Positions 11,219 through 29,075 are shown, counted from the stretch's first letter. The stretch is DNA of 64,000 bases from an uncultured Muribaculaceae bacterium (GCA_964408085.1 CAYOYB010000004.1:81231-145230), one strand, 5' to 3'. Notes: generated from the letters alone by a model not told the origin. A program made the numbers and translations.

Positions 11219-11293
11219 CTTATCACTTCCCTAATCAAGATTTTAAACAAAATAATTTATTAAAACTCCAAAAATTTGGAGTTTATCTACATC

Positions 11294-11367: not shown

Positions 11368-11502
11368 AATACATTCACTAAATATTTATTTATGAATAAA
11401 ATATAGAGAAAAATATTAACATAGATATTGTAACATTGTTATTTTATTTTTGCAAGTACTTTAATAATTTTTCAACATTATTAATAGAGGGGAAGATAAC
11501 AC

Positions 11503-11928
11503 ATGATTGTAAAATATACAACTAAAGAAAGAGATTTATTAGCAAGATTAATGCGAGCTGAAGCAGTTGGCGAAGGTAACTTGGGTATGCTAATGGTAGG
11601 AAATGTTGGTGTTAATAGAACCATTGCCAGTTGTTTAACATTTAACAACATAAGAACTATATCAGAAATGATTTATCAAAATCCAGGTGGATTTTCTGGA
11701 ATAAATAGTCCATTATTTTTTAGTAATCCAACAACACAACAACAAAATTTAGCTGATAGAGTATTAAAAGGTGAATACTATTATCCAGCTACTAATGCTT
11801 TATGGTTTTATGCGCCAAAAACTAACGAAAATTGTAAAAATATTTGGTGGGACCAAGCTTTTGCAGGAAGATACAAAAACCATTGCTTTTATGAACCATC
11901 TGAAGGAGTATGCGTAGAGATACATTAA
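11503..11928 (+). CDS. SleB-like cell wall hydrolase (Hydrolase_2 domain)
   Basis: LLARLMRAEAVGEGNLGMLMVGNVGVNR... is typical of the spore-cortex-lytic SleB catalytic domain. Confidence 0.75.
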   Translation: MIVKYTTKERDLLARLMRAEAVGEGNLGMLMVGNVGVNRTIASCLTFNNIRTISEMIYQNPGGFSGINSPLFFSNPTTQQQNLADRVLKGEYYYPATNALWFYAPKTNENCKNIWWDQAFAGRYKNHCFYEPSEGVCVEIH

Positions 11929-11983: not shown

Positions 11984-13122
11984 TTATTTACTAAGTGGAA
12001 TTCTTAGTGTTTGACCTATACTTAACAAATTACTTTTCAAATTATTATAATTCATTAATTCTTGAGCAGTATAACCATATCTTCTTCCTATTGAATATAA
12101 ATTATCTCCTGATTTAACTGTGTATTCAATATAATTTGCTTGATTATTACCAGTATTTGTTGGTATCTTTAAAGTTTGACCTATATTTAATAAAGTACTA
12201 GTTAAGTTATTATAATCCATTAATTGTTGCGTAGACACACCATATTGTCTTCCAATCGAATATAAACTATCACCTGGTTTAACAGTATAATTTATATAAT
12301 TAACTTGTTCTACATTTGAGGAACTATTAGGTATTTTTATAATCTGACCTATACTTAATAGAGTACTATCTAAATTATTATAATCAAGTAAGTCTTGTAT
12401 TGTAAAACCATATTTTTGACCAATTGAATATAGACTATCGCCACTTTTAACAACATATTCTGTATAATTACCAGTAGGCACTTGCTCAGTCGATGCTATT
12501 GGTATTCTTAGTGTTTGACCAATTTGTAATATATCACTAGTTAAATTATTATAATTTTTAAGTTCTTGTACAGTTAAATCATTTTTTTGCGCTATGCTAT
12601 ATAAACTATCTCCTGCTTTAACAGTATAATTTATATAATTCTTTGGTTCAGTATCTGTACTAGACATTCCTGGAATTTTTAATCGTTGACCTATACTTAA
12701 TGTATTATTAGTTAAGTTATTAGCATTTTTTAATTCATCAACAGTAATATCATATTTTTTAGCTATACTCCAAAGACTATCACCACTTTTAACCGTATAA
12801 TAATCTGAAGAACTTGGGTTTTTAATGTTTTTGTATTCTAATATAGCATCAACTACTGCTTGAGCATATTTTTTATAATCATTTTTTAGTTGATTAACAT
12901 CATCGCCTGTACTATCAAGAAAACCATACTCAACTAAAACGGGTTCAGTTACACCAGTATTACGATGAATAAAATAATAATCCTTTGATGTATCTGATGG
13001 TAATCTTCTTTGATAAGATTTACGTATATTTTGACCAGATTTTTCTAATTCATCTAAAATTAAATCTGCAAGTTCATTTGTATTTCGAAGTGCATAAACT
13101 ACTTCAGCACCATCACCACCTC
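11984..13122 (-). pseudogene. 3' segment of a split N-acetylmuramoyl-L-alanine amidase (end of the Amidase_3 domain plus five LysM repeats)
   Basis: GGDGAEVVYALRN...VLVEYGFLD continues an Amidase_3 domain. Five LysM units (YTVKSGDSLYSI...IGQTLKIP) follow. The first 4 codons of track ORF 11984..13132 derive from the inserted element. Confidence 0.85.
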
Positions 13123-13143
13123 GTGGGTTCATTTACCATTGTT
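13100..13143. repeat. attL-like junction of the inserted element
   Basis: Core CACCTC at 13117-13122 is shared with the other junction. The element arm GTTCATTTACCATTGTT at 13127-13143 is the 16/17 inverted repeat of 28505-28521. Confidence 0.75.
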
Positions 13144-13199
13144 CATTATTTACTTTTGTTCCACATATGTTTATTTTGCGGTTCAAAAGTAAAATAACT

Positions 13200-14090
13200 T
13201 TAATTTTCTTTCACTTTATATTTTTCTAAAAGTTCTTCTCTATGTGAATAAATTTGATTAAGTGATAATTTAGCAAGCAAATCATTCAATTTTATAACTT
13301 CTTCATCATCAATTGTAACAACATCTTTATCTGGATATTCTTCTTGTTTGGAAATCATTATTGCCAAAGATGGAGAAATTGGGTAATATAGTTCTAATTT
13401 ATCCGGTATGCCATCGAAATCACCATGAAAATTAATTGCTGGCTGATCTGAAGTAATAAAATTATCATTTTTACTTTTTAATAAACAAACTTGATAATTT
13501 TTTTCATATAAATATAAGCCTATCTTAAATGCTATACTATGGCGAATTAAAATCCATACATTTTCCCCTCTAATATCAGGATCTTTTAATTTTAAACACA
13601 TATTTTTAGTATTTTCTTTTATTTTTTTCGTTCGACAATATTGTTCAGCAATTGCATGAAAGAATTGTATAGAATTACTTTTTTCTTCTAAAAAAGAAAA
13701 ATCTTTTTTATATAAAAAATCTAACATTGGATTTAATCTATCTTCTACTATACAATTAAAAAATGACTCTTCACTTTGTTTAGCAAAATCTATTATTTCA
13801 TCTCGTTTTACACAACTTTTATAATTATATGCTTCTTTTAATTTCTCGTTAAACTGTTGATATAAAAGCATTAGCTTTTCGCAACCATTTTCTGCAAAAT
13901 ACTTTCCAATTTCAATTTCTTTATCTGTACATGGTATAAACTTATAAAAATTATTTTCTTGACCAATATTCATTATATTTGTTTTAAATATTTTCTTCTT
14001 TTCTCTAAGACAATATATCATTTCTTTAGTAGACCATTTTCTTAAATACTTTCTATAAACATAATGTGGATGTTTTGTAATACTTGTCAC
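13200..14090 (-). CDS. DUF4238-like protein (unknown function)
   Basis: N-terminal HPHYVYRKYLRKW and internal FITSDQPAINF resemble DUF4238 hallmarks (H-Y-x-P/x-x-YL and tSDnP). GTG start with an AGGTGA RBS. Confidence 0.5.
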   Translation of the reverse strand: MTSITKHPHYVYRKYLRKWSTKEMIYCLREKKKIFKTNIMNIGQENNFYKFIPCTDKEIEIGKYFAENGCEKLMLLYQQFNEKLKEAYNYKSCVKRDEIIDFAKQSEESFFNCIVEDRLNPMLDFLYKKDFSFLEEKSNSIQFFHAIAEQYCRTKKIKENTKNMCLKLKDPDIRGENVWILIRHSIAFKIGLYLYEKNYQVCLLKSKNDNFITSDQPAINFHGDFDGIPDKLELYYPISPSLAIMISKQEEYPDKDVVTIDDEEVIKLNDLLAKLSLNQIYSHREELLEKYKVKEN

Positions 14091-14117
14091 TAGATAATCA
14101 CCTATATATATTATACA

Positions 14118-15773
14118 TTATTTTTTTCCTTTTCTACCATAAGGATTTCTCGCTAAATTTCTATTTTCATATTTAAAATTTATTTCTAGAGCTATATCAT
14201 ATTTATATTTGATAGTAATATTTCTATCTTTATCAATCACTATTCTATCGACTAAAGTATCTATCAATTCTTTTTTAGGTTTATTTAAATCCAATAGTTT
14301 TTTAATCTTTTTTGTATAATTTGGTAAAATACTACTTTTGTTTTTAATTTTATATTTTTTTACTTGTTCATTTTCAATACTTTCATTTATTTGTTTTAGT
14401 TTATTTTCTGATTCGCTTGCTAATACCTTATAAGTGTCTGCTGAAATTACCCCATCACATCTATCGTTATATAGAGTTGTTAACATATTTGTTATTTTAT
14501 CTTTTTCAATCTGTAATTCTTTAATAACTTTATCTATATCAGTTGTTTCTTTATGAATATTTTTAACAACTTCATTATTTAATTCATTTACATCAAGTTC
14601 TTTAATTAATTTAGATACTGATTTATTTATTTGTTCCAATATTTGTTCTTCTAAATAATTATATGGATAAAAATGTGAATAACATCTTCCTCTTATTGGA
14701 TCTCTAGAATATCTATTACAATTAACAGACCAATAATCTAACTTTTTTCTATAAAGAACTGTTAGCCTATTTTGACACTCTTTACAAAATAATTTCCCTT
14801 CTAACAATCTTTTTTCCCTATTTGTCTTAACTTCATAATTTCTAGTATTTCGCTTTCTTAAAGTATTAACATATTTAAAAGTCTCTTTATCAACTAATGC
14901 CTCATGGGTATTTTCTACAATAATCCATAATTTTTCGTCTAAAGTTATTTTTTTCTTTGATTTATAATTCACTTTTGTTTGAGTATGCTGAATCATATCA
15001 CCAGTATATATTCTGTTACACAAGATTTTTTTTACTGTAGAAATATTCCAGTTATCTCTATCTATTAATCTTGATGAATAATTAGTTTTTTTATAACCGC
15101 TTGGTGTAACAATATTTTCTTTATTTAATCTATTTGCTATTTCAGTTGGTCCAATTCCTTCTGCACGCCAGTTAAATATATTTTTTACTATAGGAGCAGT
15201 TTCAGGATTAGGGATCAAATGTCCTTTATCTTTTGGATCTCTCATATAACCAAAGCAAGGTAGACTACCAACAAATTTTCCATTTTTTCTTTTTTCATTC
15301 AAAACATTTCTAATTTTAATAGAATTTTGTTTACTATAATAATCATTACAAGCAATTATAAATGTTGATGAATCGTTACTAGCTTGATTTTTAAAACTAT
15401 CATATGACTCAAGTATAGATATAAATCTTACACTATTTTCTGGGAAAAATGTTTCAATATAATAACCTGTCATAACATGATCTCTACCAAGTCTAGATAA
15501 ATCTTTAACTATTACACAATTTATCTTTTTTTGTTTTATATCTTCTATCATTTTTTGAAATCCAGGTCTATCAAAATCTGTACCAGAATATCCATCATCA
15601 ACATATTCTTCAACTAAATTAAATGCATTATTCTTAACATAACTTCTCAATAATTCTTTTTGATTAATTACACTTTCACTATCAGATTCATATTTTTTAT
15701 CTTTATCTTCTTGAGATAATCTTATATAGATTCCAACATTGAAATCCATTCCAGCTAAGTAAGTATTATACAT
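14118..15773 (-). CDS. large serine recombinase
   Basis: N-terminal resolvase domain (VGIYIRLSQED..., VKDLSRLGRDH), a recombinase domain, a Cys-rich zinc ribbon (CKECQNRL...CNRY...RC) and a C-terminal coiled coil. 551 aa. Confidence 0.92.
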   Translation of the reverse strand: MYNTYLAGMDFNVGIYIRLSQEDKDKKYESDSESVINQKELLRSYVKNNAFNLVEEYVDDGYSGTDFDRPGFQKMIEDIKQKKINCVIVKDLSRLGRDHVMTGYYIETFFPENSVRFISILESYDSFKNQASNDSSTFIIACNDYYSKQNSIKIRNVLNEKRKNGKFVGSLPCFGYMRDPKDKGHLIPNPETAPIVKNIFNWRAEGIGPTEIANRLNKENIVTPSGYKKTNYSSRLIDRDNWNISTVKKILCNRIYTGDMIQHTQTKVNYKSKKKITLDEKLWIIVENTHEALVDKETFKYVNTLRKRNTRNYEVKTNREKRLLEGKLFCKECQNRLTVLYRKKLDYWSVNCNRYSRDPIRGRCYSHFYPYNYLEEQILEQINKSVSKLIKELDVNELNNEVVKNIHKETTDIDKVIKELQIEKDKITNMLTTLYNDRCDGVISADTYKVLASESENKLKQINESIENEQVKKYKIKNKSSILPNYTKKIKKLLDLNKPKKELIDTLVDRIVIDKDRNITIKYKYDIALEINFKYENRNLARNPYGRKGKK

Positions 15774-16045
15774 TCATTCCTCCAATCATCTTACTTAATT
15801 GGGTATTAAGACAATTTAATAATAACGCGATATTAAAAAAATTGCAATACATCATTTTTTAATTTCTTCATCTTTTTTTATCTCTTCGATAAGATATTTT
15901 AAAATAAGATCTTTAAACTTAATTTCATTATTCATAACAACACCTATTTAAAGTTATGTTATAATTTCTAATTTTATTATCCTTCATTTTTTCAACCCCC
16001 TTGGTTTCAAATAAAAAACTATCAGTTCCTTTTCACCAATAGTTA

Positions 16046-16237
16046 TTAAATATTAACTTTATTTTTTATAAGCTCATTCTTTTTTATATCAGTATCATCA
16101 AAAAGATTCTTTTCTTCTCTTATAATGTATTTAAAACACTTCCTATTAAACATGTCTTTTAATCTTTCTTCGTTTAGATTTGGTTTATTAGTTTTAAATT
16201 CGTATGTAATCACATAATTAACTTTTCTTTTTTTCAT
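16046..16237 (-). CDS. hypothetical small basic protein
   Basis: 63-aa ORF with an AAGGCGGAG RBS. Confidence 0.45.
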   Translation of the reverse strand: MKKRKVNYVITYEFKTNKPNLNEERLKDMFNRKCFKYIIREEKNLFDDTDIKKNELIKNKVNI

Positions 16238-16305
16238 TTTCTCCGCCTTTCACCAAAATTGTAACGCACTTATAAAAATATGTCAGCAGTAAATTAAATG
16301 CTCAA

Positions 16306-16476
16306 TTACTTATCATTTCTAATAACTACTTCAAGATTTTTATAGATATATTCTTTTAACAATGATTCCATTGCAAATTGAAATGTAACTTTATTATTAG
16401 ATAATACTTTTTGAATTGCTTTCTCAGTATTACTATCTATCCTAAATTTCTTTTGTATAGTTTTATTTGCTCTCAT
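16306..16476 (-). CDS. small ribbon-helix-helix-like protein (56 aa; not in the ORF track)
   Basis: My own translation: MRANKTIQKKFRIDSNTEKAIQKVLSNNKVTFQFAMESLLKEYIYKNLEVVIRNDK. A perfect AAGGAGG RBS lies 7 nt upstream. Confidence 0.5.
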   Translation of the reverse strand: MRANKTIQKKFRIDSNTEKAIQKVLSNNKVTFQFAMESLLKEYIYKNLEVVIRNDK

Positions 16477-16824
16477 ATAAACATCCTCCTTTCTATAATT
16501 TTGGTACCGTCTTTATATTCTTATAGATATAAAAATAAAAATATTTTTAAACTAAAATTAAAGCAGGATAAATCTTGTTTACAAACAACTAGCCAGTGTC
16601 TAGTTTATCCTTATTTTATAAGAGATTTCAAAATTGCAAAGTGTAAACATTTTTCATATTTGTTATACAATTGTATACATCATAATCCTTATTTTATAAA
16701 GGGTGTTATACACTCGTATACATTTTTTTAATACGAAATATTTCATTTTTGATACATAAATAATAATTTTTGTAAAAAAATTTGGTACCAGAATTATATA
16801 TTTTTTAAGGGGCAATTTTGAATA

Positions 16825-16857
16825 CAAAAAACACCAACAAGAATAGCTTGCTGGTGC
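16825..16857 (-). terminator. terminator of the dnd operon
   Basis: Minus strand reads GCACCAGCAAGCTATTCTTGTTGGTG followed by TTTTTTGT. This is one of the few GC-containing hairpins in the region. Confidence 0.6.
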
Positions 16858-17095
16858 AATAAATTTTACAATTATTTCGTATTCTACTATATTGTAACAT
16901 ACAATTGTTGAAAGTCAATAAGGAAAAAATGTTGGATAAATAACTGCAAAAATCTCTGATTAAAATCTAATTAAGCCTTATAAATACTGCATTTTCCTAA
17001 ATAGATACTTTAATGGATATTTGCCTATTTACAATAACAAATAATTTTTTTATACCAATAATTTATAAAAATGCGACTACATTTTTTAATATTTA

Positions 17096-18208
17096 TTATT
17101 CAATTTCATCAAAATCATTATAATCACAATAAGATGATAATGAGAATCTTATTGTCTCCCTTATTTGTTCGTCCGAATAACCACATTCTTTTAAAACATA
17201 TGATGGTTTTGAATTACTACAAGCAGAGCCTGTACTTGCAGATATAATTGAAGAAGCATTTTTCAAAAACAGTTGATTATTATAGCCTTTTATTTGAATA
17301 CTAACTAATCCTGGTATTTTATTCTCAAAATTATTATTTATAATTATTCTATCACCAAATACATCAATCATTTTTTTCTTAAATTGTTTTTCATATTTTT
17401 TTAATATTTCAATATTTTTTTCCAAATCTTTTTCAGCTATTTCAGCAGCTTTACCCAAGCCAACTATTTGATGTACTGCTAAAGTACCACTTCTAAATCC
17501 AAATTCCTGTTCTCCTCCATGTATCAAAGGAGTTATTTTAGGATACAAATTATTTGAATCCTTTCTTATAAATAATATTCCAATACCTTTTGGGCCATAA
17601 AATTTATGTGCAGACATAGACAAAAAATCTATATTTGCCATTTCTTGTAAATTAATATAACCTTTACCAGCAAATTGAGTTGCATCAGTATGAAATAAAA
17701 CATTATGCTTATGACAAATTTCAGATAATCTCTTTACATCGTTAATACTTCCCAATTCATTATTTGCCCACATTATTGAAACTAAAATTGTATTCTCTTT
17801 GATATTTTTTTCTAGGATTTCTGGTAAAACAATTCCCTCACGATTAACAGGTAAAAATGTAACTTCAAAACCGTTTTCTTCTAAAAAAATGGCAGTATTT
17901 TTTATACAAGAATGTTCTACTGCACTTACTATAATATGATTGCCTTTATACTTATTCGCATGAGTATAGCCCTTTAATACCAAATTATTACTTTCAGTAG
18001 AACCACTTGTAAATATTACTTCATCATTTCTACAATTAACAAATGAGGCAACTCTTTGTCTAGCTAAGTCTACTGCTTCTTGAGATTTTAATGCTTGATT
18101 ATAATATTTACTATTAGGATTACCATAAAATTCTGTAATATATGGCAGCATTTCATCACATACCTCAGGTAAAACTCTTGTAGTTGCTGAATTATCTAGA
18201 TATAACAT
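17096..18208 (-). CDS. dndA: cysteine desulfurase DndA (IscS/NifS family)
   Basis: Class V aminotransferase motifs, SAHKFYGPKG (PLP Lys) and the active-site Cys in STGSACS. It is the last gene of the dnd operon. Start at the ATG at 18208, after AAGAAGGTGA. Confidence 0.85.
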   Translation of the reverse strand: MLYLDNSATTRVLPEVCDEMLPYITEFYGNPNSKYYNQALKSQEAVDLARQRVASFVNCRNDEVIFTSGSTESNNLVLKGYTHANKYKGNHIIVSAVEHSCIKNTAIFLEENGFEVTFLPVNREGIVLPEILEKNIKENTILVSIMWANNELGSINDVKRLSEICHKHNVLFHTDATQFAGKGYINLQEMANIDFLSMSAHKFYGPKGIGILFIRKDSNNLYPKITPLIHGGEQEFGFRSGTLAVHQIVGLGKAAEIAEKDLEKNIEILKKYEKQFKKKMIDVFGDRIIINNNFENKIPGLVSIQIKGYNNQLFLKNASSIISASTGSACSNSKPSYVLKECGYSDEQIRETIRFSLSSYCDYNDFDEIE

Positions 18209-18222
18209 TTTATTCACCTTCT

Positions 18223-18609
18223 TTAAAGTAATTCAAAAATGGAATCTAATACCTTGTCGTAATTACCTTTTAACTGATATTCATCATATAATACATTAAC
18301 GCCTCTAGAAATATGTGCATTAAATAATTCAGGAAATAATTCTGAATCTGTAACTTCTTTATTTAATTGTTCAATTAATAATGCCTTATATAATTCATCA
18401 AAATCTCCTGTTATAGTAATTCTTTGATATGTAGCACCTCCGTGATCGTTGTTGATTTCATTGTACTGTTTTCTTGGATCTTCTTTGCTTTTTAATGAGA
18501 GACCTATAGCTATTCTCATAACAGAGGCTTTGGTGGATAATTTTAGTAACTTTTGTAATTCTATTATCTTCTGTTCAACTTCTAATGAAGTAGTTAATCT
18601 ACCATTCAT
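18223..18609 (-). CDS. dndE: DNA sulfur modification protein DndE
   Basis: 128 aa, immediately after dndD. N-terminal RLTTS...LKLSTKASVMRIAIGLSL resembles the DndE family. Confidence 0.7.
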   Translation of the reverse strand: MNGRLTTSLEVEQKIIELQKLLKLSTKASVMRIAIGLSLKSKEDPRKQYNEINNDHGGATYQRITITGDFDELYKALLIEQLNKEVTDSELFPELFNAHISRGVNVLYDEYQLKGNYDKVLDSIFELL

Positions 18610-18611
18610 AA

Positions 18612-20537: not shown

Positions 20538-20556
20538 AGTTGAGTCCTCCTATCTA

Positions 20557-22128: not shown

Positions 22129-22148
22129 AACTGCACTTCCTCTTTACT

Positions 22149-22652
22149 TTATAGTCCCTCTTCCTCCAAAATTTCATTAATAGTCTTTGCACCCAAATTA
22201 CTTTTTTCGAAGAATTTATCTATTATATCTTTTATATTATCAACTTGCTTATCAAAAATAACGTCTGAAAGCATATTATACAATATGTCAATTCCACCCA
22301 TAGCATAATCATCAAAAAGTTCTTTTTTATGTAATTTTCGAGGATTTGCTATAGAATTTTCTTCAAATGATAATTTCATAGCATTTTCAGCATCAACATC
22401 TATTTCATCACTCAAGCAAATTATTTGATATAAAAAATCAATTTTATCAGCTCTATTTTGCAATACATTTCTTGGTAAATTAGCAGTTATTGAGTTATCA
22501 TTATCTTGAACATCTTTTTGATTATTAATAAATCCAAGCACCCCTGACATCATATAAATATCAACCAAATCAAAACCATACTTATTTTTTAATTCTTGAT
22601 ATTTTTCTGCTTTTTTACCCTTTATTACAATATCAGTTTGAAAAGTTAACAT
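22149..22652 (-). CDS. small helical dnd-associated protein (167 aa), function unknown
   Basis: Translationally coupled: it overlaps the upstream ATPase gene by 7 nt and ends 20 nt before dndC. No DGQHR (DndB) motif. Confidence 0.5.
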   Translation of the reverse strand: MLTFQTDIVIKGKKAEKYQELKNKYGFDLVDIYMMSGVLGFINNQKDVQDNDNSITANLPRNVLQNRADKIDFLYQIICLSDEIDVDAENAMKLSFEENSIANPRKLHKKELFDDYAMGGIDILYNMLSDVIFDKQVDNIKDIIDKFFEKSNLGAKTINEILEEEGL

Positions 22653-24637
22653 TTAATTATATCCCCCTTCTCAACTAATGAGACGCTAGACGTTGTTCCA
22701 ACTTTGTCTATATCATACATTAATCCAATTCTATCTTTCAATGTATCTTCAACTACACCATCCCATTGACTATCTGAAGTGAACAATATTATTTGGTCTG
22801 TTAAAGAAGGTATTATTGATGTTACATTTTTCCTATGACTTAAATCTAATTTAGCAAAAGGGGCATCCATTACTAATGTAAATCTATCATCATCTGATAA
22901 TTCCGTTGTTTCGTCTTTTTCTCTAGAAATAAATTCTTTTGCAATTGATATAATGGATCCAACAAAAGCAAAACTTGTAACAATTTTTTCGCCTTCAGAT
23001 AATGTAGTCGTTTTAAATTCATCAGTTACATTAAAATTATAATCATCTTCAATATAAATTGATTTTTCAGAATTTAACATCTTAGATAAAAGTTCACTTA
23101 TTTTATTCTGTAAATCATCTTTAACTTCTCTTTCTTTTTTATTTAATCTATTAGTCATATCATTTATCAATTTTTGGCATATATCTACTTTAAATTGAAC
23201 AGCATCATTAATATTACTAGAAACAGTAATCCTACTTCGTTCATCTTCTTTATTTCTTTGGGATTGCTTCATAACTTCTATTTGATTTTTACAACTACCA
23301 ATAGCTTGATTCTTAGAAGCAATTGAATTTCTCAATTGAATATACTCATCATTATATTTAGATAAATCTTGATCACCAACATCAGCAATTAATTTTTCAT
23401 TATCGTTAATTTTATTTGTAATAATATCCTTATTATTTATTAGATTATTATAATCTTCATACATTCTATTGAAATTCTCATAATACTTTCTATTATTTTC
23501 AATTGCATTATTAATATGAACTTCAAGACTTTTTAATAAAACACTATAACTTTCTGGAGGCAAATAACTTTTCAATTTTTCAAGTCTTTTAATTGCATCT
23601 TGATTATTATATAAATTATTTCCACAAATACATACGCCATCATTTAAAATATGATTAATCGCATTTGCATTTATTCCTTCTATTACTTTATCCCTCAGAT
23701 CGCTTTTTTGGATTTTTTCCTGTAATATTTCAAAGGTTGAGCCTAAAAAATAATTAACACTTGCCGTGCCAAATGTTTTAAATATTTGAATTTTCTTTTT
23801 TTCTATTTCGTCTTGAATCTTTTCCATTTGCTTGTTGTATTCAACCCTCTTATTCTGTAATTCTTTTAATGCTGCATTAGACTTTAGAATTTCATTAACT
23901 TTGGATTGCCTTTTTTCTAATTCTATTAATTCATCCTCATATTTTTCTTTATTTTTATTTTCTATATCTAATTTTTCATCTAACAATTTTAAATCTTCAT
24001 TTATCTGATTTAACTTAGAAGAATTATCCGAAACAAATTCAGTCTCAAATTCCTTTTTGGCTTTTTCTAAATGGTACTTAGAATTCTCAAGCACATCTAA
24101 ACCCAAAAGATTTTTTACAGCTTTTGATAAATCTTTTTTCCCTACTCGTTGATTATCAACTAAATCTTGCATTCTTTCACCATCAAACAAGAAATATGTT
24201 GATAAGTCTCTTGGAAATATTTCCCTAATTGCATTTTGAGTAGTTCGTTTGGTTTCTCCAGTTACTGGATCCGAAATAGTAAAAGTCAAATCTTCAACTA
24301 ATTTTTGAATATTACCATTAGAATTTCTAATATAATCAATATATTTTCTACAAGTATATATTTTTTTTGAGTGTTCAAATTCTAAACTGACTTCAACACA
24401 TGCTTTCTCCCCAACAGCAATTTTTGATAATATTTCTTTTGTAATTAATTCGTCAGGATTGTCTAATTTAATTTGCCCATATAAACACCAATTAAAAGCT
24501 TGTAATAAAGTAGTTTTTCCTGCACCATTATTAGCAATAATCACAGTTACATTTTTCTCTTTAGAAGTTGAAAAAGAGATTTCAGTATCGCCTTTAAACT
24601 GTCTAAAGTTGTGTAAATTCATTTTTCTGAATATCAT
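22646..24637 (-). CDS. second DndD-like SMC-type ATPase (paralogue class distinct from dndD)
   Basis: Walker A ANNGAGKTT, an E/K-rich coiled coil, LSEGEK, and VMDAPFAKLDLSHR, which parallels DndD's FDTPLARLDKENR. GAGGTG RBS. Confidence 0.7.
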   Translation of the reverse strand: MIFRKMNLHNFRQFKGDTEISFSTSKEKNVTVIIANNGAGKTTLLQAFNWCLYGQIKLDNPDELITKEILSKIAVGEKACVEVSLEFEHSKKIYTCRKYIDYIRNSNGNIQKLVEDLTFTISDPVTGETKRTTQNAIREIFPRDLSTYFLFDGERMQDLVDNQRVGKKDLSKAVKNLLGLDVLENSKYHLEKAKKEFETEFVSDNSSKLNQINEDLKLLDEKLDIENKNKEKYEDELIELEKRQSKVNEILKSNAALKELQNKRVEYNKQMEKIQDEIEKKKIQIFKTFGTASVNYFLGSTFEILQEKIQKSDLRDKVIEGINANAINHILNDGVCICGNNLYNNQDAIKRLEKLKSYLPPESYSVLLKSLEVHINNAIENNRKYYENFNRMYEDYNNLINNKDIITNKINDNEKLIADVGDQDLSKYNDEYIQLRNSIASKNQAIGSCKNQIEVMKQSQRNKEDERSRITVSSNINDAVQFKVDICQKLINDMTNRLNKKEREVKDDLQNKISELLSKMLNSEKSIYIEDDYNFNVTDEFKTTTLSEGEKIVTSFAFVGSIISIAKEFISREKDETTELSDDDRFTLVMDAPFAKLDLSHRKNVTSIIPSLTDQIILFTSDSQWDGVVEDTLKDRIGLMYDIDKVGTTSSVSLVEKGDIIKC

Positions 24638-24791
24638 TCTTTTTCACCTCTCGCTCAATTATATTTTTTATTACTTTAATCATTTCAGAATCTTTTTTTT
24701 CTTTGGTATTAAAATTTTTCTTTTCCGTAAATATTATTTCATACAAAACTTCTGCAGATATTTCATTAATCAATTCAGATCTACTCTTCAT
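24603..24791 (-). CDS. 62-aa Lys/Glu-rich ORF bridging the helicase and ATPase genes
   Basis: GGAGG lies 8 nt before the ATG. It overlaps the helicase stop by 11 nt and the ATPase start by 35 nt. It fills the only gap in the operon. Confidence 0.35.
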   Translation of the reverse strand: MKSRSELINEISAEVLYEIIFTEKKNFNTKEKKDSEMIKVIKNIIEREVKKNDIQKNEFTQL

Positions 24792-26940
24792 CTATAAAAC
24801 CTCCAACATTATATTTATCCCTAACATCATGTATTTTTTCTTTTTCAATTCCATAAATAGCTAATAAGTCATTAATGAATCTTTCACCCTGATCTTTATT
24901 TTCCGCTAAAGAGTTAAATTCATATACTCTTTTCAATTCACTCTCAACTAAACTAGAACCAGTATAATTTTCTTCTTCACTACATGGAACAGTAACAAAA
25001 TCATGAATATATGCATATTCTTTATCAGGATATAATCGAAGTACTCTTCCCCTTCTTTGAATAAATTCTTTTGGATCTGTACTACTTGAAAGAATAAAAG
25101 CATGCTGAATGGCTGGAATATTCACACCTTCATCAAGACATTTTATTGCAACTATAGCCTGTAGATCTTTTCCTTCACTAAACATTTCTATAATTTCTGA
25201 TCGTTCTTCTGATGTTTCTTCTGATGTGAATTTCCTATTCTTTATACCAAACTCATTCCATAATATCTGACAAACTTTTCTAATTTGTCTTTCTTCACTT
25301 CCATCTATTTCATCAATGGTTTTGGTCGCTCCACAATAAACTAATATATAGTTTTTATTAAAATATTGACTCATCAAATTTCTAAGTACGACTAATTTAT
25401 TACTCGCACCAGCTACTAGTCTTGCTCTTTTTATAAGTAAATTTTTTGCAATGTCATTTATTATAATCTTTCCACTAACTTCTCTGATATTTTGAGCAAT
25501 CCTTAACGAAAGCTTATTATATTCATCTTGTTCTTCCACAGTCAATCTAACAATATGAGGAAAATAATAATATCTAGTCAAAAACCCCTCATTAATAGCT
25601 CTTTCAAGATCAAATGAATAAACCTCTCCACCAAAATAATTATATATAAATTCTGTATTTTCTTCATCTCTAAATCTTCTAGGTGTTGCAGATAACCCCA
25701 ATCTATACTTAAATTTTTCATCTAAGCTTGCTCTCATAGAATTTGTTCCCGCATTATGAGCTTCATCTACAACCAACAATATATCACCATTAACTTTGCT
25801 TAAAAATTTTTGCATATCTTCAGATGAAAATGTAGCATTTGTTGTTACAATAGTAAAATTGTCAATAGTTCCATAATTAAATAATTTAATTTTTCTATAC
25901 ACTTGCTCTTTCCAATTTGGATATACAGAATAACACACTACAGGATTCAAATTAAATTTCTTAACATCTTCTACCCATTGTTCAACCAAATGCTGATATG
26001 GACAAACAATTACAATTACTAATTTTTCAATTTCTTTCCATATTTCAGTTATGCCATATAAACCTGTTAACGTTTTTCCTGTACCAGTAGCCATAGTCAA
26101 CAATCCCATGTATTTATTATTTATCCAATTTGTTATTGCTTCTTTCTGATATTGCCTTGGTTTAAACCAATCAGGAATTAATGGAAATTCTATGTTTTCT
26201 TCGTAAGAAGGAATGATTTCGTTGAATTCTTCATGAGTATTTTCTTTTATATAATCTATTTTTTTAAATTCTAGCAATTTATTTTTTAATGCATCTGGAA
26301 ATGGTTGAATATTTAACCTATTAGTTTTATTATCCCATAAATTTGTAAAATCTATATCATATTCTTTAACATATTCATTTTCATCACTATTCCAAGATTT
26401 GAACACAACAAAAGATTCGAAATTGGTATATTGTCCATTATTAGTTTCATTCATAGAACCAGTAAACATAATTTTATTATGCATCGCATCCTCTATAATA
26501 CCAAATTTTTCATGGTATGCACCATAGTCATCCATTAATGCTATCTTAATATCCAATCTATCATCTGCTATAAGTGTAGCTATATAATTCAATTTTTCAT
26601 TAATGTTTTCAGATTCTATATTATTAAATTCTCTTATCATAGCATCCAATATAACATCCGATTTCATTTTATATCCTAAATTAATAGTATCTATATCCTC
26701 TTTACTAAGTTTTGGAGAAGCTATTATTTCAACTTTACCTCCATTTTCAATCAAATTTGATAGTCCTTGAGAGGCATTAACTAAAGAAGAAATTGTAAAA
26801 TAACCAACTGCCCTTTTATAATAAGTTGCAACTGATAATAAAGGATTATAAAAATCTTTTACCATATTGTTTTTGCTACTTCTATATGATCGTTCTATAC
26901 TAATATCAGTTAACAACATTTTACCACCTATGACTTTCAT
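24781..26940 (-). CDS. PLD-family nuclease domain fused to an SF2 (ResIII/DEAH) helicase
   Basis: Single HKD motif HEKFGIIED in the N-terminal ~230 aa. Helicase motifs MATGTGKT (I), VVDEAHN (II), LSATP (III) and QRRGRVLR (VI). The start could instead be Met8 at 26919. Confidence 0.8.
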   Translation of the reverse strand: MKVIGGKMLLTDISIERSYRSSKNNMVKDFYNPLLSVATYYKRAVGYFTISSLVNASQGLSNLIENGGKVEIIASPKLSKEDIDTINLGYKMKSDVILDAMIREFNNIESENINEKLNYIATLIADDRLDIKIALMDDYGAYHEKFGIIEDAMHNKIMFTGSMNETNNGQYTNFESFVVFKSWNSDENEYVKEYDIDFTNLWDNKTNRLNIQPFPDALKNKLLEFKKIDYIKENTHEEFNEIIPSYEENIEFPLIPDWFKPRQYQKEAITNWINNKYMGLLTMATGTGKTLTGLYGITEIWKEIEKLVIVIVCPYQHLVEQWVEDVKKFNLNPVVCYSVYPNWKEQVYRKIKLFNYGTIDNFTIVTTNATFSSEDMQKFLSKVNGDILLVVDEAHNAGTNSMRASLDEKFKYRLGLSATPRRFRDEENTEFIYNYFGGEVYSFDLERAINEGFLTRYYYFPHIVRLTVEEQDEYNKLSLRIAQNIREVSGKIIINDIAKNLLIKRARLVAGASNKLVVLRNLMSQYFNKNYILVYCGATKTIDEIDGSEERQIRKVCQILWNEFGIKNRKFTSEETSEERSEIIEMFSEGKDLQAIVAIKCLDEGVNIPAIQHAFILSSSTDPKEFIQRRGRVLRLYPDKEYAYIHDFVTVPCSEEENYTGSSLVESELKRVYEFNSLAENKDQGERFINDLLAIYGIEKEKIHDVRDKYNVGGFIDEE

Positions 26941-27174
26941 TTCTAAGGGAATTTTCCAATATTATTATATCATGTATACTTTGAGTTGTAAATTAAATGG
27001 AGAATCTATACTTAATAATTTATTTTACAAATAAATTAATTTTTTTCGTTATTTTTCATTCTAAATAAAAATATTACAATTAAATATTAAATTATCATTA
27101 ATAACATAATACGATAATAACGCTTTAAACTAAAAAAATCCATACAAAACATGGAAAAGATCGTTTATAAAACA

Positions 27175-27205
27175 TTAAAAAAGGCCCTACCACTAGATAG
27201 TGCCT
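27175..27205 (-). terminator. terminator after fic
   Basis: Hairpin AGGCACTATCTAGTGGTAGGGCCT followed by TTTTTT on the minus strand. Confidence 0.55.
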
Positions 27206-27271
27206 ATATGAAAATAATTTAATATTTTCTTCATTAATAATATGTTATAAATATTAGTTTAGATCAATAAA

Positions 27272-28120
27272 TTAATCTTTCCTATCAAATAATTCTTTAA
27301 TAATTAAATCTTGAGAGTGTAAATTATTATTTTTTCCTAATAATAAATTTTCATAAAATTTAATTAAATAACTACTATCTTCTTTTATATTTAAATAATT
27401 ATTATAATAATTACTTCTTAATAAAGCATTTCTAAAATATACAGATTTATTCTTAAATAAAGTATTATCCACACTATAACCTAAACTTATTAAATATTTT
27501 TCTATAAATAATGCAGTAGTTCTAGTATTACCCTCTCTAAATGGATGAACCTGCCATATACTAGATGAAAATTTAGTAATGCTGTTTATAACTTCTACTA
27601 TATTCATTTCTTTATAGTTTTTTTCTTTTTCTAAAGATATATCATATTCTAATGATTCAGTTAATGTTTTACAATCACCATATGCCACTGAATCATTATT
27701 TAATATTTTTTCATGTTTTGAAAAATCTATTTTTCTAAACTCACCTGCAAACTCATAAACATCTTGAAATAAATATTTATGGACATATTTTAAATAATCA
27801 ACAGATAATTCAAATTTATTTTCTTGTAATAATTCAACTATCCTAGTAGACACAAAATCACATTCTAATTCGCTATGATTTATTTCTTTTTTACCTTCTT
27901 TTTCTATATAATATTCTTTTAATTCATTTTCTACTTGTTCAATAGTTAAATTACCATTAACATTATTACTTACAAGCTTTTCTAAATATTTAGAAGGTTT
28001 TAAATTATCTACTTCCTGTAAACCAATAGCCATATCCCATTGTAATTGTTTTACATAATTATTAGACTTATATTCTTCTTGATATTCATTAACACTTGAA
28101 TCTAATTCTTTTTCACTCAT
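27272..28120 (-). CDS. Fic/Fido-domain protein with a degenerate active-site motif
   Basis: HPFREGNTRTTA compared with the canonical HPFx(D/E)GNGRxxR. 282 aa. Strong AGGAGG RBS. Confidence 0.8.
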   Translation of the reverse strand: MSEKELDSSVNEYQEEYKSNNYVKQLQWDMAIGLQEVDNLKPSKYLEKLVSNNVNGNLTIEQVENELKEYYIEKEGKKEINHSELECDFVSTRIVELLQENKFELSVDYLKYVHKYLFQDVYEFAGEFRKIDFSKHEKILNNDSVAYGDCKTLTESLEYDISLEKEKNYKEMNIVEVINSITKFSSSIWQVHPFREGNTRTTALFIEKYLISLGYSVDNTLFKNKSVYFRNALLRSNYYNNYLNIKEDSSYLIKFYENLLLGKNNNLHSQDLIIKELFDRKD

Positions 28121-28183
28121 AATTTATACCTCCTAACCATTTTTAATTATACCATATTTTTTATAATAATTAAGTTATTATAT

Positions 28184-28441
28184 TTAATTATCTAATTCTA
28201 ATCTATAATAAACCCTTAAATCCATAATAGCTTGTCTAAAAATTTTCTTTTCTTCTTCCTGAGAATAAATTATCACATCATGCAATGTCTTATAAATTGA
28301 TATGACACTTACATTTTTATTATCTAAATATTTATAATTTAAATAAATCAAATCTGCTAATAATCTAGCATCATTTTCTATTCTTAACCTTTTTTCTTCT
28401 TTAATAAAATTCTTTTCGTTTATCGTCATTCCATCCTCCAT
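28184..28441 (-). CDS. hypothetical small protein upstream of fic
   Basis: 85-aa ORF (alternative start at 28429). It begins about 60 nt inside the element's right end. Confidence 0.45.
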   Translation of the reverse strand: MEDGMTINEKNFIKEEKRLRIENDARLLADLIYLNYKYLDNKNVSVISIYKTLHDVIIYSQEEEKKIFRQAIMDLRVYYRLELDN

Positions 28442-28504
28442 TTATTGCGTATTTTTTTACTATTGTTTTATTAAATATACATGTCTCAATACCCAATTAA
28501 ATTT

Positions 28505-28548
28505 AACAATGGTAACTGAACATTTCACCTCCTGCATTTATGTGATTA
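28505..28548. repeat. attR-like junction of the inserted element
   Basis: Element arm AACAATGGTAACTGAAC at 28505-28521. Core CACCTC at 28526-28531. Confidence 0.75.
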
Positions 28549-28790
28549 GACACAACAATTACATCACTATTATTTCCATAAGCTTCTAATATTCTATTTA
28601 CCCTTTCAGTTGGTGATAAAGTCTCATCACTAACTCTAGTCATCTTAACATCCACACCTAAATTTTTAAATAAATCATACATATATTGAGAAATCTCTAA
28701 AGTTAAATCTTTTTCAATTATACCATTGCCACTAGCTCCAGGATCTGAGCCCCCATGACCAGCATCTATAACAACTTTTAAATCATTCAT
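28526..28790 (-). pseudogene. 5' segment of the split N-acetylmuramoyl-L-alanine amidase (Amidase_3 N-terminus)
   Basis: MNDLKVVIDAGHGGSDPGA...VVSNHINAGG, then 7 element-derived codons and a stop in track ORF 28503..28790. Confidence 0.85.
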
Positions 28791-29075
28791 ATTTTACCTC
28801 CTAAAATAATTTTATGATTATAATTGAGAAAGGTGCCCATTTATAATTATACTTTTATATAAAAAATATTTTCCCTACATATTATAGCTTTTATATTTAC
28901 ATAATGATATAATAAACATGAAAGAAGGTAGATAAATATTATGATAATAATTTTTATTTTACTAACAATAGTCGCAATATTTGCAGGAATTCATGATGGA
29001 TCAAAATAAATATACCATAACTATTAAAATATAAAATAATACAAACAAAAAATCAAAACTTTAATTTTGATTTTT

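What the first reader, a model, noticed from the sequence alone, without database searches (positions are those of the whole stretch)
13100..28548. 15.4-kb large-serine-recombinase element splits an Amidase_3-LysM hydrolase gene; attB and a palindromic attP can be rebuilt from the junctions
Seen directly:
- ORF 28503..28790 encodes the Amidase_3 N-terminus up to ...SNHINAGG, then 7 unrelated codons and a stop.
- ORF 11984..13132 begins with 4 unrelated codons, then continues GGDGAEVVY... and five LysM repeats.
- Both junctions share CACCTC (13117-13122 and 28526-28531).
- Joining the host flanks gives, in gene sense, GTGTCTAATCACATAAATGCAG-GAGGTG-GTGATGGTGCTGAAGT. This is an uninterrupted ...HINAGGGDGAEVVY... 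ORF of about 465 aa.
- Joining the element ends gives AACAATGGTAACTGAAC-ATTTCACCTCGTGG-GTTCATTTACCATTGTT. Its 17-bp arms are 16/17 inverted repeats centred on the shared core, as expected for a large-serine-recombinase attP.
- The recombinase (14118..15773) sits about 1 kb from the left end.

Inference:
- The arrangement resembles the skin/SPbeta-type intervening elements that interrupt sporulation genes in Bacillus and Clostridium and excise to restore them.
- The neighbours cwlD and a SleB-domain gene indicate a spore-former.
- The cargo here is a defence operon rather than a prophage.
- The amidase promoter would read through the 5' gene fragment into the element's first genes (the 85-aa ORF and fic).
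Basis: partly seen in the sequence, partly recalled or inferred. Interest (0 to 1): 0.8.

Follow-up and report, generated by a model that had tools for sequence, protein, structure and literature searches.

The report
Recombinase-borne defence island splitting a sporulation-type amidase gene
A 15.4-kb mobile island carrying anti-phage genes is inserted by a large serine recombinase inside a cell-wall amidase gene of an uncultured gut bacterium; it belongs to a large, undescribed family that uses the same landing site, and it is a new example of a known kind of element.

Summary
Window 13123-28531 is a discrete island that splits an Amidase_3 + 5xLysM gene. Joining the flanks gives a 465-aa ORF. 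Its central 44 nt match real uninterrupted alleles in syntenic contigs except at one base. The joined element ends form a 16/17 palindrome centred on the 6-bp core.

The cargo is a dndCDEA-pbeABCD phosphorothioate defence module plus a Fic candidate defence gene. There are no phage or conjugation genes.

Three things are new. First, the recombinase belongs to a large family (53-94% identity), and 52 of 57 members with enough flank sit at this same site. They carry swapped cargo, mostly restriction-modification. At least five attP types converge on the same ~10 bp. Second, one species shows the empty site and two different occupied states. Third, the amidase has no signal peptide and carries a conserved sigma-K-type promoter (AC-N16-CATAnnnTA). 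It therefore looks like a cwlC-type mother-cell gene.

Excision during sporulation, as with skin, SPbeta and gin, is plausible but untested. No mother-cell promoter was found near the recombinase, and no attP junction was found in two collections. This is a new member of a known kind and is moderately interesting.

The parts
13123..28531 (-). The integrated island, 15.4 kb. One copy of the 6-bp core is counted with it. All its genes point the same way as the amidase gene.
   Evidence: Junctions. The empty-site alleles L001, L005 and L006 lack it. GC is 25.0%, the same as both flanks.
13117..13122 (.). Core CACCTC at the left junction (attL in + coordinates). The inferred crossover dinucleotide is CC, which is GG in gene sense.
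   Evidence: Junctions of other element types narrow the shared crossover to AGGTG.
13129..13145 (.). Left attP arm, GTTCATTTACCATTGTT.
   Evidence: It is 16/17 complementary to 28506-28522, and the dyad centre coincides with the core centre. The same arm type is found in L087, L089 and L092.
28506..28522 (.). Right attP arm, AACAATGGTAACTGAAC.
   Evidence: Related arms (GTTCAGTTACCA) occur at the right junctions of L112, L113 and L122.
28526..28531 (.). Core CACCTC at the right junction (attR).
28503..28790 (-). 5' fragment of the amidase gene. Host codons 1-88 run from 28790 down to about 28527, followed by 7 element-encoded codons and a stop.
   Evidence: Amidase_3 profile positions 1-78. 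There is no signal peptide: the protein starts MNDLKVVIDAGHGG.
11984..13132 (-). 3' fragment of the amidase gene. It starts with 4 element-encoded codons (MNPR), then the rest of Amidase_3 and five LysM repeats.
   Evidence: Amidase_3 profile positions 83-173 plus 5 LysM repeats.
28808..28834 (-). Sigma-K-type promoter of the amidase gene, ACCTTTCTCAATTATAATCATAAAATT (AC-N16-CATAnnnT).
   Evidence: CATAnnnT[AT] occurs in 66/80 orthologous upstream regions against 14% of controls. AC-N16/17-CATA occurs in 45/80 against 4.7%. C at -17 is 90% conserved and A at +8 is 92% conserved in 78 aligned sites.
14118..15773 (-). Large serine recombinase, 551 aa. The catalytic motif is YIRLS, with R18 and S20.
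   Evidence: Resolvase, Recombinase and Zn_ribbon_recom domains. The nearest solved relative is the TnpX catalytic domain, E = 5e-27. Compared with the L089 homologue, codon positions 1+2 are 96% identical and position 3 is 76% identical, which indicates purifying selection.
13200..14090 (-). DUF4238 protein, 296 aa, in a variable slot between the recombinase and the att end.
   Evidence: Pfam DUF4238, E = 6e-23. In relatives this slot holds unrelated ORFs of 134, 166, 345 or 445 aa.
15852..15935 (-). 27-aa ORF immediately upstream of the recombinase. It is a candidate recombination directionality factor.
   Evidence: It is conserved at 64-77% in 23 family loci at the same position. An AGGTG ribosome-binding site lies 5 nt upstream.
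16046..16237 (-). 63-aa ORF of the backbone. It is a candidate accessory or directionality factor.
   Evidence: It is conserved in 12 loci. A CTGACA-17-TACAAT promoter-like site lies at 16286-16258. No Pfam hit.
16306..16476 (-). 56-aa ORF of the backbone. It is a candidate accessory or directionality factor.
   Evidence: It is conserved at 53-68% in 17 loci. No Pfam hit.
16831..16857 (-). The only intrinsic-terminator-like hairpin in the island. It separates the dnd operon from the recombinase module.
   Evidence: The recombinase module 14118-16971 is the block shared at 83% nt identity with the L089-type islands.
17096..22128 (-). dndC (20557-22128), dndD (18612-20537), dndE (18223-18609) and dndA (17096-18217). 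These are DNA phosphorothioate modification genes.
   Evidence: PADLOC: DndC 9e-171, DndD 1e-94, DndE 6e-14, DndA/SspA 1e-130. Pfam: PAPS_reduct, DndE, Aminotran_5.
22149..26940 (-). pbeA (24781-26940, PLD + helicase), a 62-aa ORF (24603-24791), pbeC-like SMC ATPase (22646-24637) and a 167-aa ORF (22149-22652). This is the restriction partner of Dnd.
   Evidence: PADLOC: PbeA 4e-240, PbeC 2e-138. Pfam: PLDc_2, ResIII, Helicase_C. The two small ORFs match no model. Their positions fit pbeB and pbeD (inference).
27272..28120 (-). Fic-domain protein, 282 aa. It matches the candidate defence family PDC-S72 and is a conserved backbone gene.
   Evidence: PADLOC PDC-S72 2e-79. Pfam Fic. It is 86-90% identical in 11 family loci.
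28184..28441 (-). 85-aa ORF, the first gene after the amidase 5' fragment.
   Evidence: No family hit. No homologue in any fetched locus.
11503..11928 (+). Host neighbour: a 141-aa protein consisting only of Hydrolase_2 (CwlJ-like).
   Evidence: Pfam Hydrolase_2. The SleB equivalog scores only 41 bits. 33/48 orthologous upstream regions carry a CATA-type -10 box.
31191..31856 (-). Host neighbour: a CwlD-like Amidase_3 protein, 221 aa.
   Evidence: TIGR02883 scores 203.1 bits against a cutoff of 221.55. 12/13 orthologous upstream regions carry a CATA-type -10 box.

Best explanation
Window 13123-28531 is a non-phage, non-conjugative integrative island moved by a large serine recombinase (LSR).

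Integration. The recombinase pairs a ~48-bp palindromic attP on the circular island with an attB made of codons ~84-93 of an amidase gene. These codons encode the conserved SNHINAGGGDGAE motif. The recombinase cuts both sites at a central GG/CC dinucleotide and rejoins them. The gene is split without loss or gain of a base, so the reverse reaction restores it exactly.

Cargo. The island carries a complete dndCDEA-pbeABCD phosphorothioate modification and restriction system, plus a Fic (PDC-S72) gene. It works as a portable anti-phage cassette.

Family. The island is one member of a large modular family. The backbone is the Fic gene, three small ORFs and the recombinase. The central defence cargo is swapped between members. 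The family spreads between species of uncultured gut Bacilli and nearly always lands at this site.

Target gene. The amidase has no signal peptide and has a conserved sigma-K-type promoter. It is therefore most likely a cwlC-like mother-cell amidase.

Inferred step, not shown (my probability about 0.45). The island is excised in the terminally differentiated mother cell during sporulation. This would restore the amidase there while the spore genome keeps the island, as with skin, SPbeta and gin.

Shown here: the anatomy, the empty and occupied alleles, the family-wide site specificity, the cargo, and the promoter signature.
Inferred: the recombination chemistry (from what is known of the LSR family), the identity of the directionality factor, and the timing of excision.
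For: Junction anatomy.
- The attP palindrome is centred on the core, and only 7/20000 random joins reach 16/17.

Empty and occupied sites.
- Empty sites occur in the same synteny, and the central 44 nt of attB match except at 1 nt.
- One species has the empty site and two occupied states, with flanks 99.4-99.9% identical.
- Identical junctions appear in two other samples.

Recombinase.
- It has the LSR domain set.
- The TnpX catalytic domain is the nearest solved relative.
- It is under purifying selection: codon positions 1+2 are 96% identical and position 3 is 76% identical.

Family.
- More than 120 protein clusters are 88-94% identical.
- 52/57 family loci with at least 3 kb of downstream flank have an amidase fragment junction within 7 kb of the recombinase.
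- A 93%-identical recombinase sits at the same site of an amidase that is only 51% identical.
- The same backbone carries a Type I R-M system instead of Dnd-Pbe.
- In 16 complete elements of 2.9-14.7 kb the cargo is dominated by R-M and other defence genes.
- All 16 rebuilt ORFs are open through the last LysM repeat.

Sporulation link.
- Sigma-K-type promoter: 45/80 against 4.7% of controls. C at -17 is 90% conserved.
- CATA-type -10 boxes also lie upstream of the CwlJ-like (33/48) and CwlD-like (12/13) genes.
- Related uncultured orders are predicted to include spore formers (PMC10868615).
- There is a precedent for a non-prophage island with R-M cargo excised in sporulation by an LSR plus a 42-aa factor (PMC5595907).
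Against: - No attP (excised-circle) junction was found in JGI metagenome contigs or IMG/VR.
- No AC-N16/17-CATAnnnT[AT] motif lies within 1.3 kb upstream of the recombinase in any of 56 family members. Background is 7-17% per window. On the gene strand of the island, the only match to the looser form of the motif (CATAnnnT[AT]) lies inside a coding region.
- The 85-aa ORF next to the host promoter is not conserved.
- No core sporulation gene was seen in about 60 kb of host DNA.
- The CwlD-like protein scores below the equivalog cutoff.
- Site occupancy varies between strains. This also fits simple insertion into a dispensable gene.
- The predicted -10 box lies only 4-6 nt from the ribosome-binding site. 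That would give an unusually short leader.
- The host genus is unknown, so its ability to form spores is not established.
Confidence: 0.8

Rival explanations
1. It is the same LSR defence island, with no developmental role. The conserved motif codons of the amidase gene give a landing site that exists in many hosts. Losing one lytic amidase is tolerated. Excision happens only sporadically, for transfer or replacement.
For: - Occupancy varies between strains, and the elements at the site are replaced. Three different element ends occur in alleles that are at least 96% identical. One species has empty and occupied states.
- The same recombinase (93% identity) occurs in hosts whose amidases are only 51% identical, which indicates recent horizontal spread.
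- No mother-cell promoter lies near the recombinase, and no attP contig was found.
- Some genomes carry tandem amidase paralogues, which suggests redundancy.
- A second recombinase clade hits another conserved motif of the same gene with non-defence cargo.
Against: - The target is specifically a gene with a sigma-K-type promoter. Every characterised sporulation-linked intervening element sits in that class of gene (PMC5595907, PMC4191935).
- All 16 rebuilt ORFs are intact.
- In the window's own species group, every allele found is interrupted and none shows decay.
Confidence: 0.45
2. It is a Tn4451/Tn5397-type element. Its TnpX-like recombinase carries out both insertion and excision without a separate directionality factor, and the element moves as a circular intermediate mobilised by other elements.
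For: - The nearest solved relative is the TnpX catalytic domain, E = 5e-27, against 5e-13 for TP901-1 integrase.
- TnpV homologues occur in 3 family elements.
- The site-1 recombinases carry DUF4368.
- That TnpX alone catalyses both reactions is from my own knowledge of Tn4451.
Against: - The window's island has no Mob/relaxase gene, no TnpV, and no DUF4368 on its recombinase.
- Tn4451 targets loosely defined sites, whereas this family is strictly site-specific.
- Three small ORFs are conserved next to the recombinase, as expected for a directionality factor.
Confidence: 0.25
3. It is a degraded prophage or phage satellite of the skin type.
For: skin is itself a prophage remnant moved by an LSR. 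The recombinase has distant relatives (34% identity or less) in phage records.
Against: - The island has no capsid, tail, terminase, portal, replication or lysis genes. Every ORF larger than 100 aa is accounted for as Dnd, Pbe, Fic, DUF4238 or the recombinase.
- IMG/VR holds no match to the attP.
- The cargo of 16 relatives is R-M and other defence genes.
Confidence: 0.03
4. It is an assembly chimera or a chance ORF break.
For: None beyond the general risk with metagenome assemblies.
Against: - Independent assemblies from two other samples are 100% identical across the junction.
- More than 50 independent loci have the same break point.
- The palindrome is centred on the core.
Confidence: 0.01

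Closest known systems
gin element of Bacillus cereus ATCC 10987 (GirC recombinase plus the 42-aa factor GirX, inserted in gerE)
   Same: It is a non-prophage genomic island with restriction-modification cargo. A large serine recombinase inserts it inside the coding sequence of a mother-cell sporulation gene, and the junctions share a short core. Excision restores the ORF. The directionality factor is a tiny ORF with no known motif (PMC5595907).
   Different: - The target here is an amidase-LysM (cwlC-like) gene, not gerE.
- The host is an uncultured gut Bacilli lineage.
- The cargo is Dnd-Pbe.
- gin has lower GC than its host, whereas this island matches its host.
- Excision in sporulation was shown experimentally for gin and not for this island.
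- Many attP types converge on one site here.
skin (SpoIVCA, in sigK) and SPbeta (SprA/SprB, in spsM) of Bacillus subtilis; skin of Clostridioides difficile
   Same: An LSR-mediated element interrupts a mother-cell gene, and the interruption can be reversed precisely. A non-palindromic central dinucleotide fixes the orientation (PMC4191935, PMC5499854, PMC5025042).
   Different: Those are prophages or prophage remnants of 14-135 kb, whose recombinase or directionality factor is under sigma-E/K control. Here there are no phage genes, and no such promoter was found near the recombinase.
Tn4451 / TnpX (Clostridium perfringens)
   Same: TnpX is the closest recombinase by sequence among solved structures. 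Both are small cargo-carrying elements without phage genes, and TnpV-like genes occur in some relatives.
   Different: Tn4451 carries catP and the mobilisation gene tnpZ, and it inserts at loosely defined sites. This island has no Mob gene and has one strict attB.
SCCmec (CcrAB recombinases, inserted in rlmH/orfX)
   Same: It is a cassette moved only by serine recombinases, with no transfer genes of its own. It has one conserved chromosomal attB in a core gene, a modular variable cargo, and many cassette types at one site (my own knowledge).
   Different: SCC inserts at the 3' end of rlmH without inactivating it. It carries resistance genes and often uses two recombinases.
Dnd-Pbe phosphorothioate defence (dndCDEA-pbeABCD)
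   Same: The gene set and order match: PbeA (PLD-helicase), a small ORF, PbeC (SMC-like), a small ORF, then DndC, DndD, DndE and DndA.
   Different: There is no dndB. The two small ORFs match no PADLOC model. The system here rides on an LSR island.

Membership tests
Large serine recombinase integrative elements | The recombinase has an N-terminal resolvase catalytic domain with a serine nucleophile, then a recombinase domain and a zinc ribbon. | tested here: met
   PF00239 covers residues 15-166, PF07508 covers 190-309 and PF13408 covers 323-383. The YIRLS motif has S20.
Large serine recombinase integrative elements | attP is short, has imperfect dyad symmetry, and is centred on the crossover. 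| tested here: met
   The arms are 16/17 complementary, the spacer is 14 nt, and the dyad centre falls in the middle of the CACCTC core. Among 20000 random joins, 7 reach this score.
Large serine recombinase integrative elements | Recombination is conservative: the empty site equals the joined flanks, with no target duplication beyond the short core. | tested here: met
   The central 44 nt of the rebuilt attB match the natural alleles in L001 and L002 except at 1 nt. The conspecific empty site L005 is compared with the occupied sites L087 and L088.
Large serine recombinase integrative elements | A separate recombination directionality factor is needed for excision. | not testable with these tools
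   There are only candidates: conserved ORFs of 27, 56 and 63 aa next to the recombinase.
Sporulation gene-intervening elements (skin, SPbeta, gin type) | The interrupted gene is expressed in the mother cell during sporulation. | tested here: inconclusive
   A conserved AC-N16-CATAnnnTA signature is present in 45/80 regions against 4.7% of controls, with C at -17 in 90%. The protein has no signal peptide. No expression data exist.
Sporulation gene-intervening elements (skin, SPbeta, gin type) | The host forms endospores. | not testable with these tools
   The evidence is only indirect. The CwlD-like protein scores 203 against a cutoff of 221.55. There is a CwlJ-like gene, and CATA-type -10 boxes lie upstream of both. 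Related orders are predicted to include spore formers (PMC10868615). No core spo gene was seen in about 60 kb of host DNA.
Sporulation gene-intervening elements (skin, SPbeta, gin type) | Excision restores an intact ORF. | tested here: met
   The window gives a 465-aa ORF. All 16 complete relatives give open ORFs.
Sporulation gene-intervening elements (skin, SPbeta, gin type) | The recombinase or its directionality factor is under sigma-E/K control, and excision occurs in sporulating cells. | tested here: inconclusive
   The motif scan found nothing within 1.3 kb upstream of the recombinase in 56 members, and nothing convincing elsewhere in the island. A pattern scan cannot exclude such a promoter, and excision itself cannot be tested here.
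Dnd-Pbe phosphorothioate defence | dndC, dndD and dndE are present, with a cysteine desulfurase (dndA). | tested here: met
   PADLOC: DndC 9e-171, DndD 1e-94, DndE 6e-14, DndA 6e-130.
Dnd-Pbe phosphorothioate defence | The restriction partner pbeABCD lies adjacent. | tested here: inconclusive
   PbeA 4e-240 and PbeC 2e-138 are met. The 62-aa and 167-aa ORFs at the pbeB and pbeD positions match no model.
Tn4451-type mobilisable transposons | A Mob/relaxase gene (TnpZ) and TnpV accompany a TnpX-like recombinase. | tested here: not met
   No such domain occurs in any ORF of the window's island. TnpV occurs in only 3 of 16 relatives.
Prophage or phage satellite | Phage structural, packaging or replication genes are present. 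| tested here: not met
   Searches find none. The attP is absent from IMG/VR. The recombinase is 34% identical or less to phage-encoded ones.

The most novel reading that the evidence does not exclude
Codons 84-93 of a sigma-K-driven, cwlC-like amidase gene serve as a dedicated landing pad in uncultured gut Bacilli. At least five attP types of LSR islands shuttle interchangeable anti-phage systems into it. Each island is cut out in the mother cell to rebuild the lysis amidase, while the spore keeps the island. The defence island would thus be kept in the germline and removed in the soma. Its attB and attP junction reads would be a culture-free reporter of sporulation in a lineage never grown in the laboratory.
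Probability: 0.4. Interest if true: 0.7.

Novelty: new member of a known kind. Interest (0 to 1): 0.55.

Why it matters
- It adds a new target gene (a cwlC-like amidase), a new host clade (uncultured, reduced-genome gut Bacilli), and a whole modular family to the short list of LSR elements that split mother-cell genes.
- It shows that such elements can be pure defence-system shuttles with swappable cargo.
- The defined 44-nt attB and 48-nt attP, with a well-conserved recombinase, could be tried directly as a site-specific integration tool.
- The conserved sigma-K-type and CATA-type promoters upstream of three peptidoglycan hydrolase genes are independent evidence that this uncultured lineage has a mother-cell regulon.
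- If excision is tied to sporulation, junction reads would report sporulation in situ in stool metagenomes.

Tried and rejected
- attP search. A degenerate 38-nt attP pattern found no match in JGI metagenome contigs or IMG/VR. No excised circle or free form was found. These collections hold few of the relevant samples.
- Mother-cell promoter near the recombinase. There were no hits in 56 family members, and only chance-level hits elsewhere in the island.
- The 85-aa ORF as a conserved, host-promoter-driven directionality factor. It has no homologue in any fetched locus, so I rejected the idea.
- Generic sigma-70 scan. It found 153 sites against 150.7 expected, so it is uninformative in 25% GC DNA.
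- The repeat finder. The terminal arms did not rank among the longest inverted repeats because AT-rich low-identity pairs dominate the list. I replaced it with a direct test.
- Core sporulation genes. None was seen in the rest of the window or in flanks extended by 10 kb on each side.
- Literature. No paper in the library combines 'intervening element' with cwlC.
- Prophage, satellite and assembly-artefact readings were rejected (see the rival explanations).

Full report
**1. Observation**

Pfam Amidase_3 is cut between profile positions 78 and 83. Joining the host flanks gives a 465-aa Amidase_3 + 5xLysM protein.

Joining the element ends gives AACAATGGTAACTGAAC-ATTTCACCTCGTGG-GTTCATTTACCATTGTT. 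The arms are 16/17 complementary. The dyad centre falls between the two central C's of the core. Among 20,000 random pseudo-junctions from the window, 7 gave a 16/17 inverted repeat at any position.

The junction is not an assembly artefact. Contigs from two other samples are 100% identical over 8.5 and 11.7 kb across it.

**2. Empty sites**

A search with the rebuilt protein found full-length 465-aa homologues at 80-82% identity. Their contigs (L001, L002, L005, and the species-representative MAG L006) show the same neighbourhood: a CwlD-like gene, Abi_2, HtrA, the amidase and a Hydrolase_2 gene. In all of them the gene is uninterrupted.

The central 44 nt of the rebuilt attB differ from L001 and L002 at one base. 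About 50 further orthologues carry ...SNH(I/L)NAGG... intact.

L087 and L088 have host flanks 99.4% and 99.9% identical to the empty L005, but each carries a different element end at the same position. One species therefore has the empty state and two occupied states.

**3. Contents of the island**

All genes are co-oriented with the amidase. In gene order they are:
- an 85-aa ORF;
- Fic (PADLOC PDC-S72, 2e-79);
- PbeA (PLD + helicase, 4e-240);
- a 62-aa ORF;
- a PbeC-like SMC ATPase (2e-138);
- a 167-aa ORF;
- DndC, DndD, DndE, DndA;
- the only predicted terminator (16857-16831);
- ORFs of 56, 63 and 27 aa;
- the recombinase;
- a DUF4238 protein.

There are no phage, replication, relaxase or conjugation genes. 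GC is 25.0%, equal to the flanks.

The recombinase has the full LSR domain set. Its nearest solved relative is the TnpX catalytic domain (5e-27). The nearest phage-encoded relatives are 34% identical or less.

**4. A large family aimed at one site**

*Truncated amidase proteins.* Those in the database carry several different leaders fused at exactly GGDGAEV. MNPRGG, MNSSGG, MNSRGG and MRGG represent the same type of element end. MQENAGGG, MDRQKRLKNITQRLSPGG and MSYGRLPLLLLISAGG are three further, distinct ends.
- L003 carries a DpnII R-M system and a 54%-identical recombinase.
- L004 carries MutH, OLD-TOPRIM and UvrD genes. This combination resembles Gabija, which is my inference.

*The recombinase family.* It has more than 120 clusters at 88-94% identity. 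A 93%-identical copy (L089-L096) has the same backbone but a Type I R-M system as cargo. The shared backbone is Fic at 87% nt and the module of recombinase plus small ORFs at 83% nt. That copy sits at the same codons of an amidase that is only 51% identical, in a different genomic context. The module therefore spreads horizontally.

*Site specificity.* A metagenome scan gave 80 more loci (53-89% identity). Of 57 with at least 3 kb of downstream flank, 52 have an amidase fragment broken at residue 84-94 within 7 kb.

*Complete elements.* Sixteen measure 2.9-14.7 kb. The smallest (L122) is little more than the recombinase. Six loci have the inverted orientation. At least five unrelated right-arm sequences abut the same AGG(T)G.

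*Cargo.* The 16 complete elements carry 8 C5-methylases, N6-methylases, DpnII, MmeI-type and AspBHI enzymes, Z1/AIPR, MutH, a Schlafen-type helicase, a reverse transcriptase, and AAA_15/21 ATPases. Three carry TnpV and three carry HTH_36.

*Conservation.*
- Codon positions 1+2 of the recombinase are 96% identical to the L089 copy and position 3 is 76% identical, which indicates purifying selection.
- The 27-aa ORF is conserved in 23 loci, the 56-aa ORF in 17, the 63-aa ORF in 12 and Fic in 11.
- The 85-aa ORF and DUF4238 are not conserved.

**5. What the target gene is**

The protein starts directly with the catalytic domain and has no signal peptide. Its C-terminal part consists of wall-binding repeats. 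This is the architecture of B. subtilis CwlC, the sigma-K-dependent mother-cell lysis amidase (my own knowledge).

*Promoter motif.*
- Of 80 distinct orthologous upstream regions, 66 have CATAnnnT[AT] within 60 nt of the start. The figure is 14% for 937 control ORFs from the same loci.
- 45 of the 80 have AC-N16/17-CATAnnnT[AT], against 4.7% of controls.
- I aligned 78 sites on CATA, which was the only feature used to select them. C is present at -17 in 90% and A at +8 in 92%, in DNA that is about 10% C.
- This matches the published sigma-K consensus AC-16/17-CATA---TA (established knowledge).

*Neighbouring genes.* The CwlJ-like gene (33/48) and the CwlD-like gene (12/13) carry the CATA-type -10 box, mostly without the AC. 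That pattern is expected of sigma-E-type promoters.

*Host lineage.* The nearest genomes are labelled uncultured Bacilli, Tenericutes or Mollicutes, CAG:433 and CAG:822. That these belong to RF39 or RFN20 is from my memory, not tested. These orders are predicted to contain spore formers (PMC10868615).

*Against.*
- The CwlD-like protein scores below its equivalog cutoff (203 against 221.55).
- The -10 box lies only 4-6 nt from the ribosome-binding site.
- No core sporulation gene lies in the roughly 60 kb of host DNA examined.

**6. Mechanism**

*Shown.* The insertion is site-specific and conservative, at a fixed crossover inside GAGGTG. The central GG is inferred from the dyad centre and from the overlap of all junction types. 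Occupancy is polymorphic, the cargo is modular, and the recombinase is under selection.

*Inferred from what is known of the LSR family.* Dimers bound to attP and attB synapse, make double-strand cuts with 2-nt overhangs, rotate subunits and religate. The non-palindromic GG fixes the orientation. Excision needs a directionality factor, for which the three conserved small ORFs are candidates. Alternatively the enzyme is bidirectional like TnpX.

*Inferred cargo function.* Dnd adds phosphorothioate marks to host DNA, and Pbe attacks unmarked DNA.

*Developmental excision.* Excision in the mother cell is plausible because the target gene belongs to the class hit by every characterised sporulation-linked intervening element (PMC5595907, PMC4191935, PMC5025042). 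All 16 rebuilt ORFs are intact. In the window's own species group every allele found is interrupted, by three different element ends, yet none is decayed.

It is not shown. No mother-cell promoter lies near the recombinase, and no attP junction was found. I put it at about 0.45.

**7. Comparison with known elements and novelty**

The closest known element is gin of B. cereus. It is a non-prophage island with R-M cargo, an LSR and a 42-aa directionality factor, inserted in gerE. SCCmec is the closest analogue as a recombinase-only modular cassette with one chromosomal site. Tn4451 is the closest by recombinase sequence.

No paper in the library links an intervening element to cwlC.

My verdict is a new member of a known kind. 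It is notable for the size and modularity of the family, for the convergence of several attP types on one ~10-bp site, and for the uncultured host clade.

Noticed in passing
L066:1-10050; also L017, L025, L046, L070 near the amidase start: A second clade of serine recombinases (31-33% identical, with a DUF4368 tail) inserts in the same amidase gene at codons ~10-11, the DAGHGG motif. In L066 the promoter plus the first 11 codons lie at 9-69 and the rest of the gene starts near 10000. The ~9.9-kb element between them carries ParA, ParB, two ABC exporters, a PHP protein, MazF and the recombinase.
   Followed up: partly
L014:12366-12620, L016:11293-11562, L065:398-652; L018, L025, L034, L036: Some genomes have two tandem amidase-LysM paralogues. 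In L014, L016 and L065 an extra 5' fragment ends at residue 90-94, which suggests the second copy is split at the same site.
   Followed up: no
L122:940-3827: This is a minimal 2.9-kb member of the family. It holds only the recombinase and one 180-aa ORF between the two amidase halves, so the recombinase lies directly downstream of the host sigma-K-type promoter.
   Followed up: no
L140, L142, L145, L157, L172, L174: Members with recombinases about 61% identical are inserted in the opposite orientation relative to the amidase gene, and the recombinase lies next to the 5' fragment.
   Followed up: no
proteins P0007-P0010: In the window's own species group (3' fragments at least 96% identical) every allele in the 5.8-billion-protein collection is interrupted, by three different element ends. 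The best full-length protein is only 82% identical.
   Followed up: partly
window 2377-11400: The stretch between the CwlJ-like gene and the 327-aa gene at 1371-2354 is about 9 kb longer than in the syntenic L001. It holds tRNA-Trp (11294-11367), a NUDIX gene, several HTH proteins, an FkbM methyltransferase, an aminotransferase-GNAT fusion and unannotated small ORFs. It may be another variable island next to the tRNA.
   Followed up: no
window 30172-31131 (-); L001:7871-8806; L005:1329-2258: An Abi_2 (abortive-infection-like) gene is conserved between the CwlD-like gene and the HtrA-like protease in all syntenic genomes. It looks like core genome, not island.
   Followed up: no
upstream of window 11503 (+) and 31856 (-), and their orthologues: CATAnnnT[AT] -10 boxes close to the ribosome-binding site are strongly enriched upstream of the CwlJ-like (33/48) and CwlD-like (12/13) genes, against 14% of control ORFs. 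This points to a mother-cell-type regulon in this uncultured clade.
   Followed up: partly
window 13117-13135 (-); L087, L092: The left attP arm supplies an in-frame ATG (MNPRGG, MNSRGG) to the 3' amidase fragment in several, but not all, members. L089 has ATA instead. No terminator is predicted after the recombinase or DUF4238, so a truncated LysM protein might be made.
   Followed up: no
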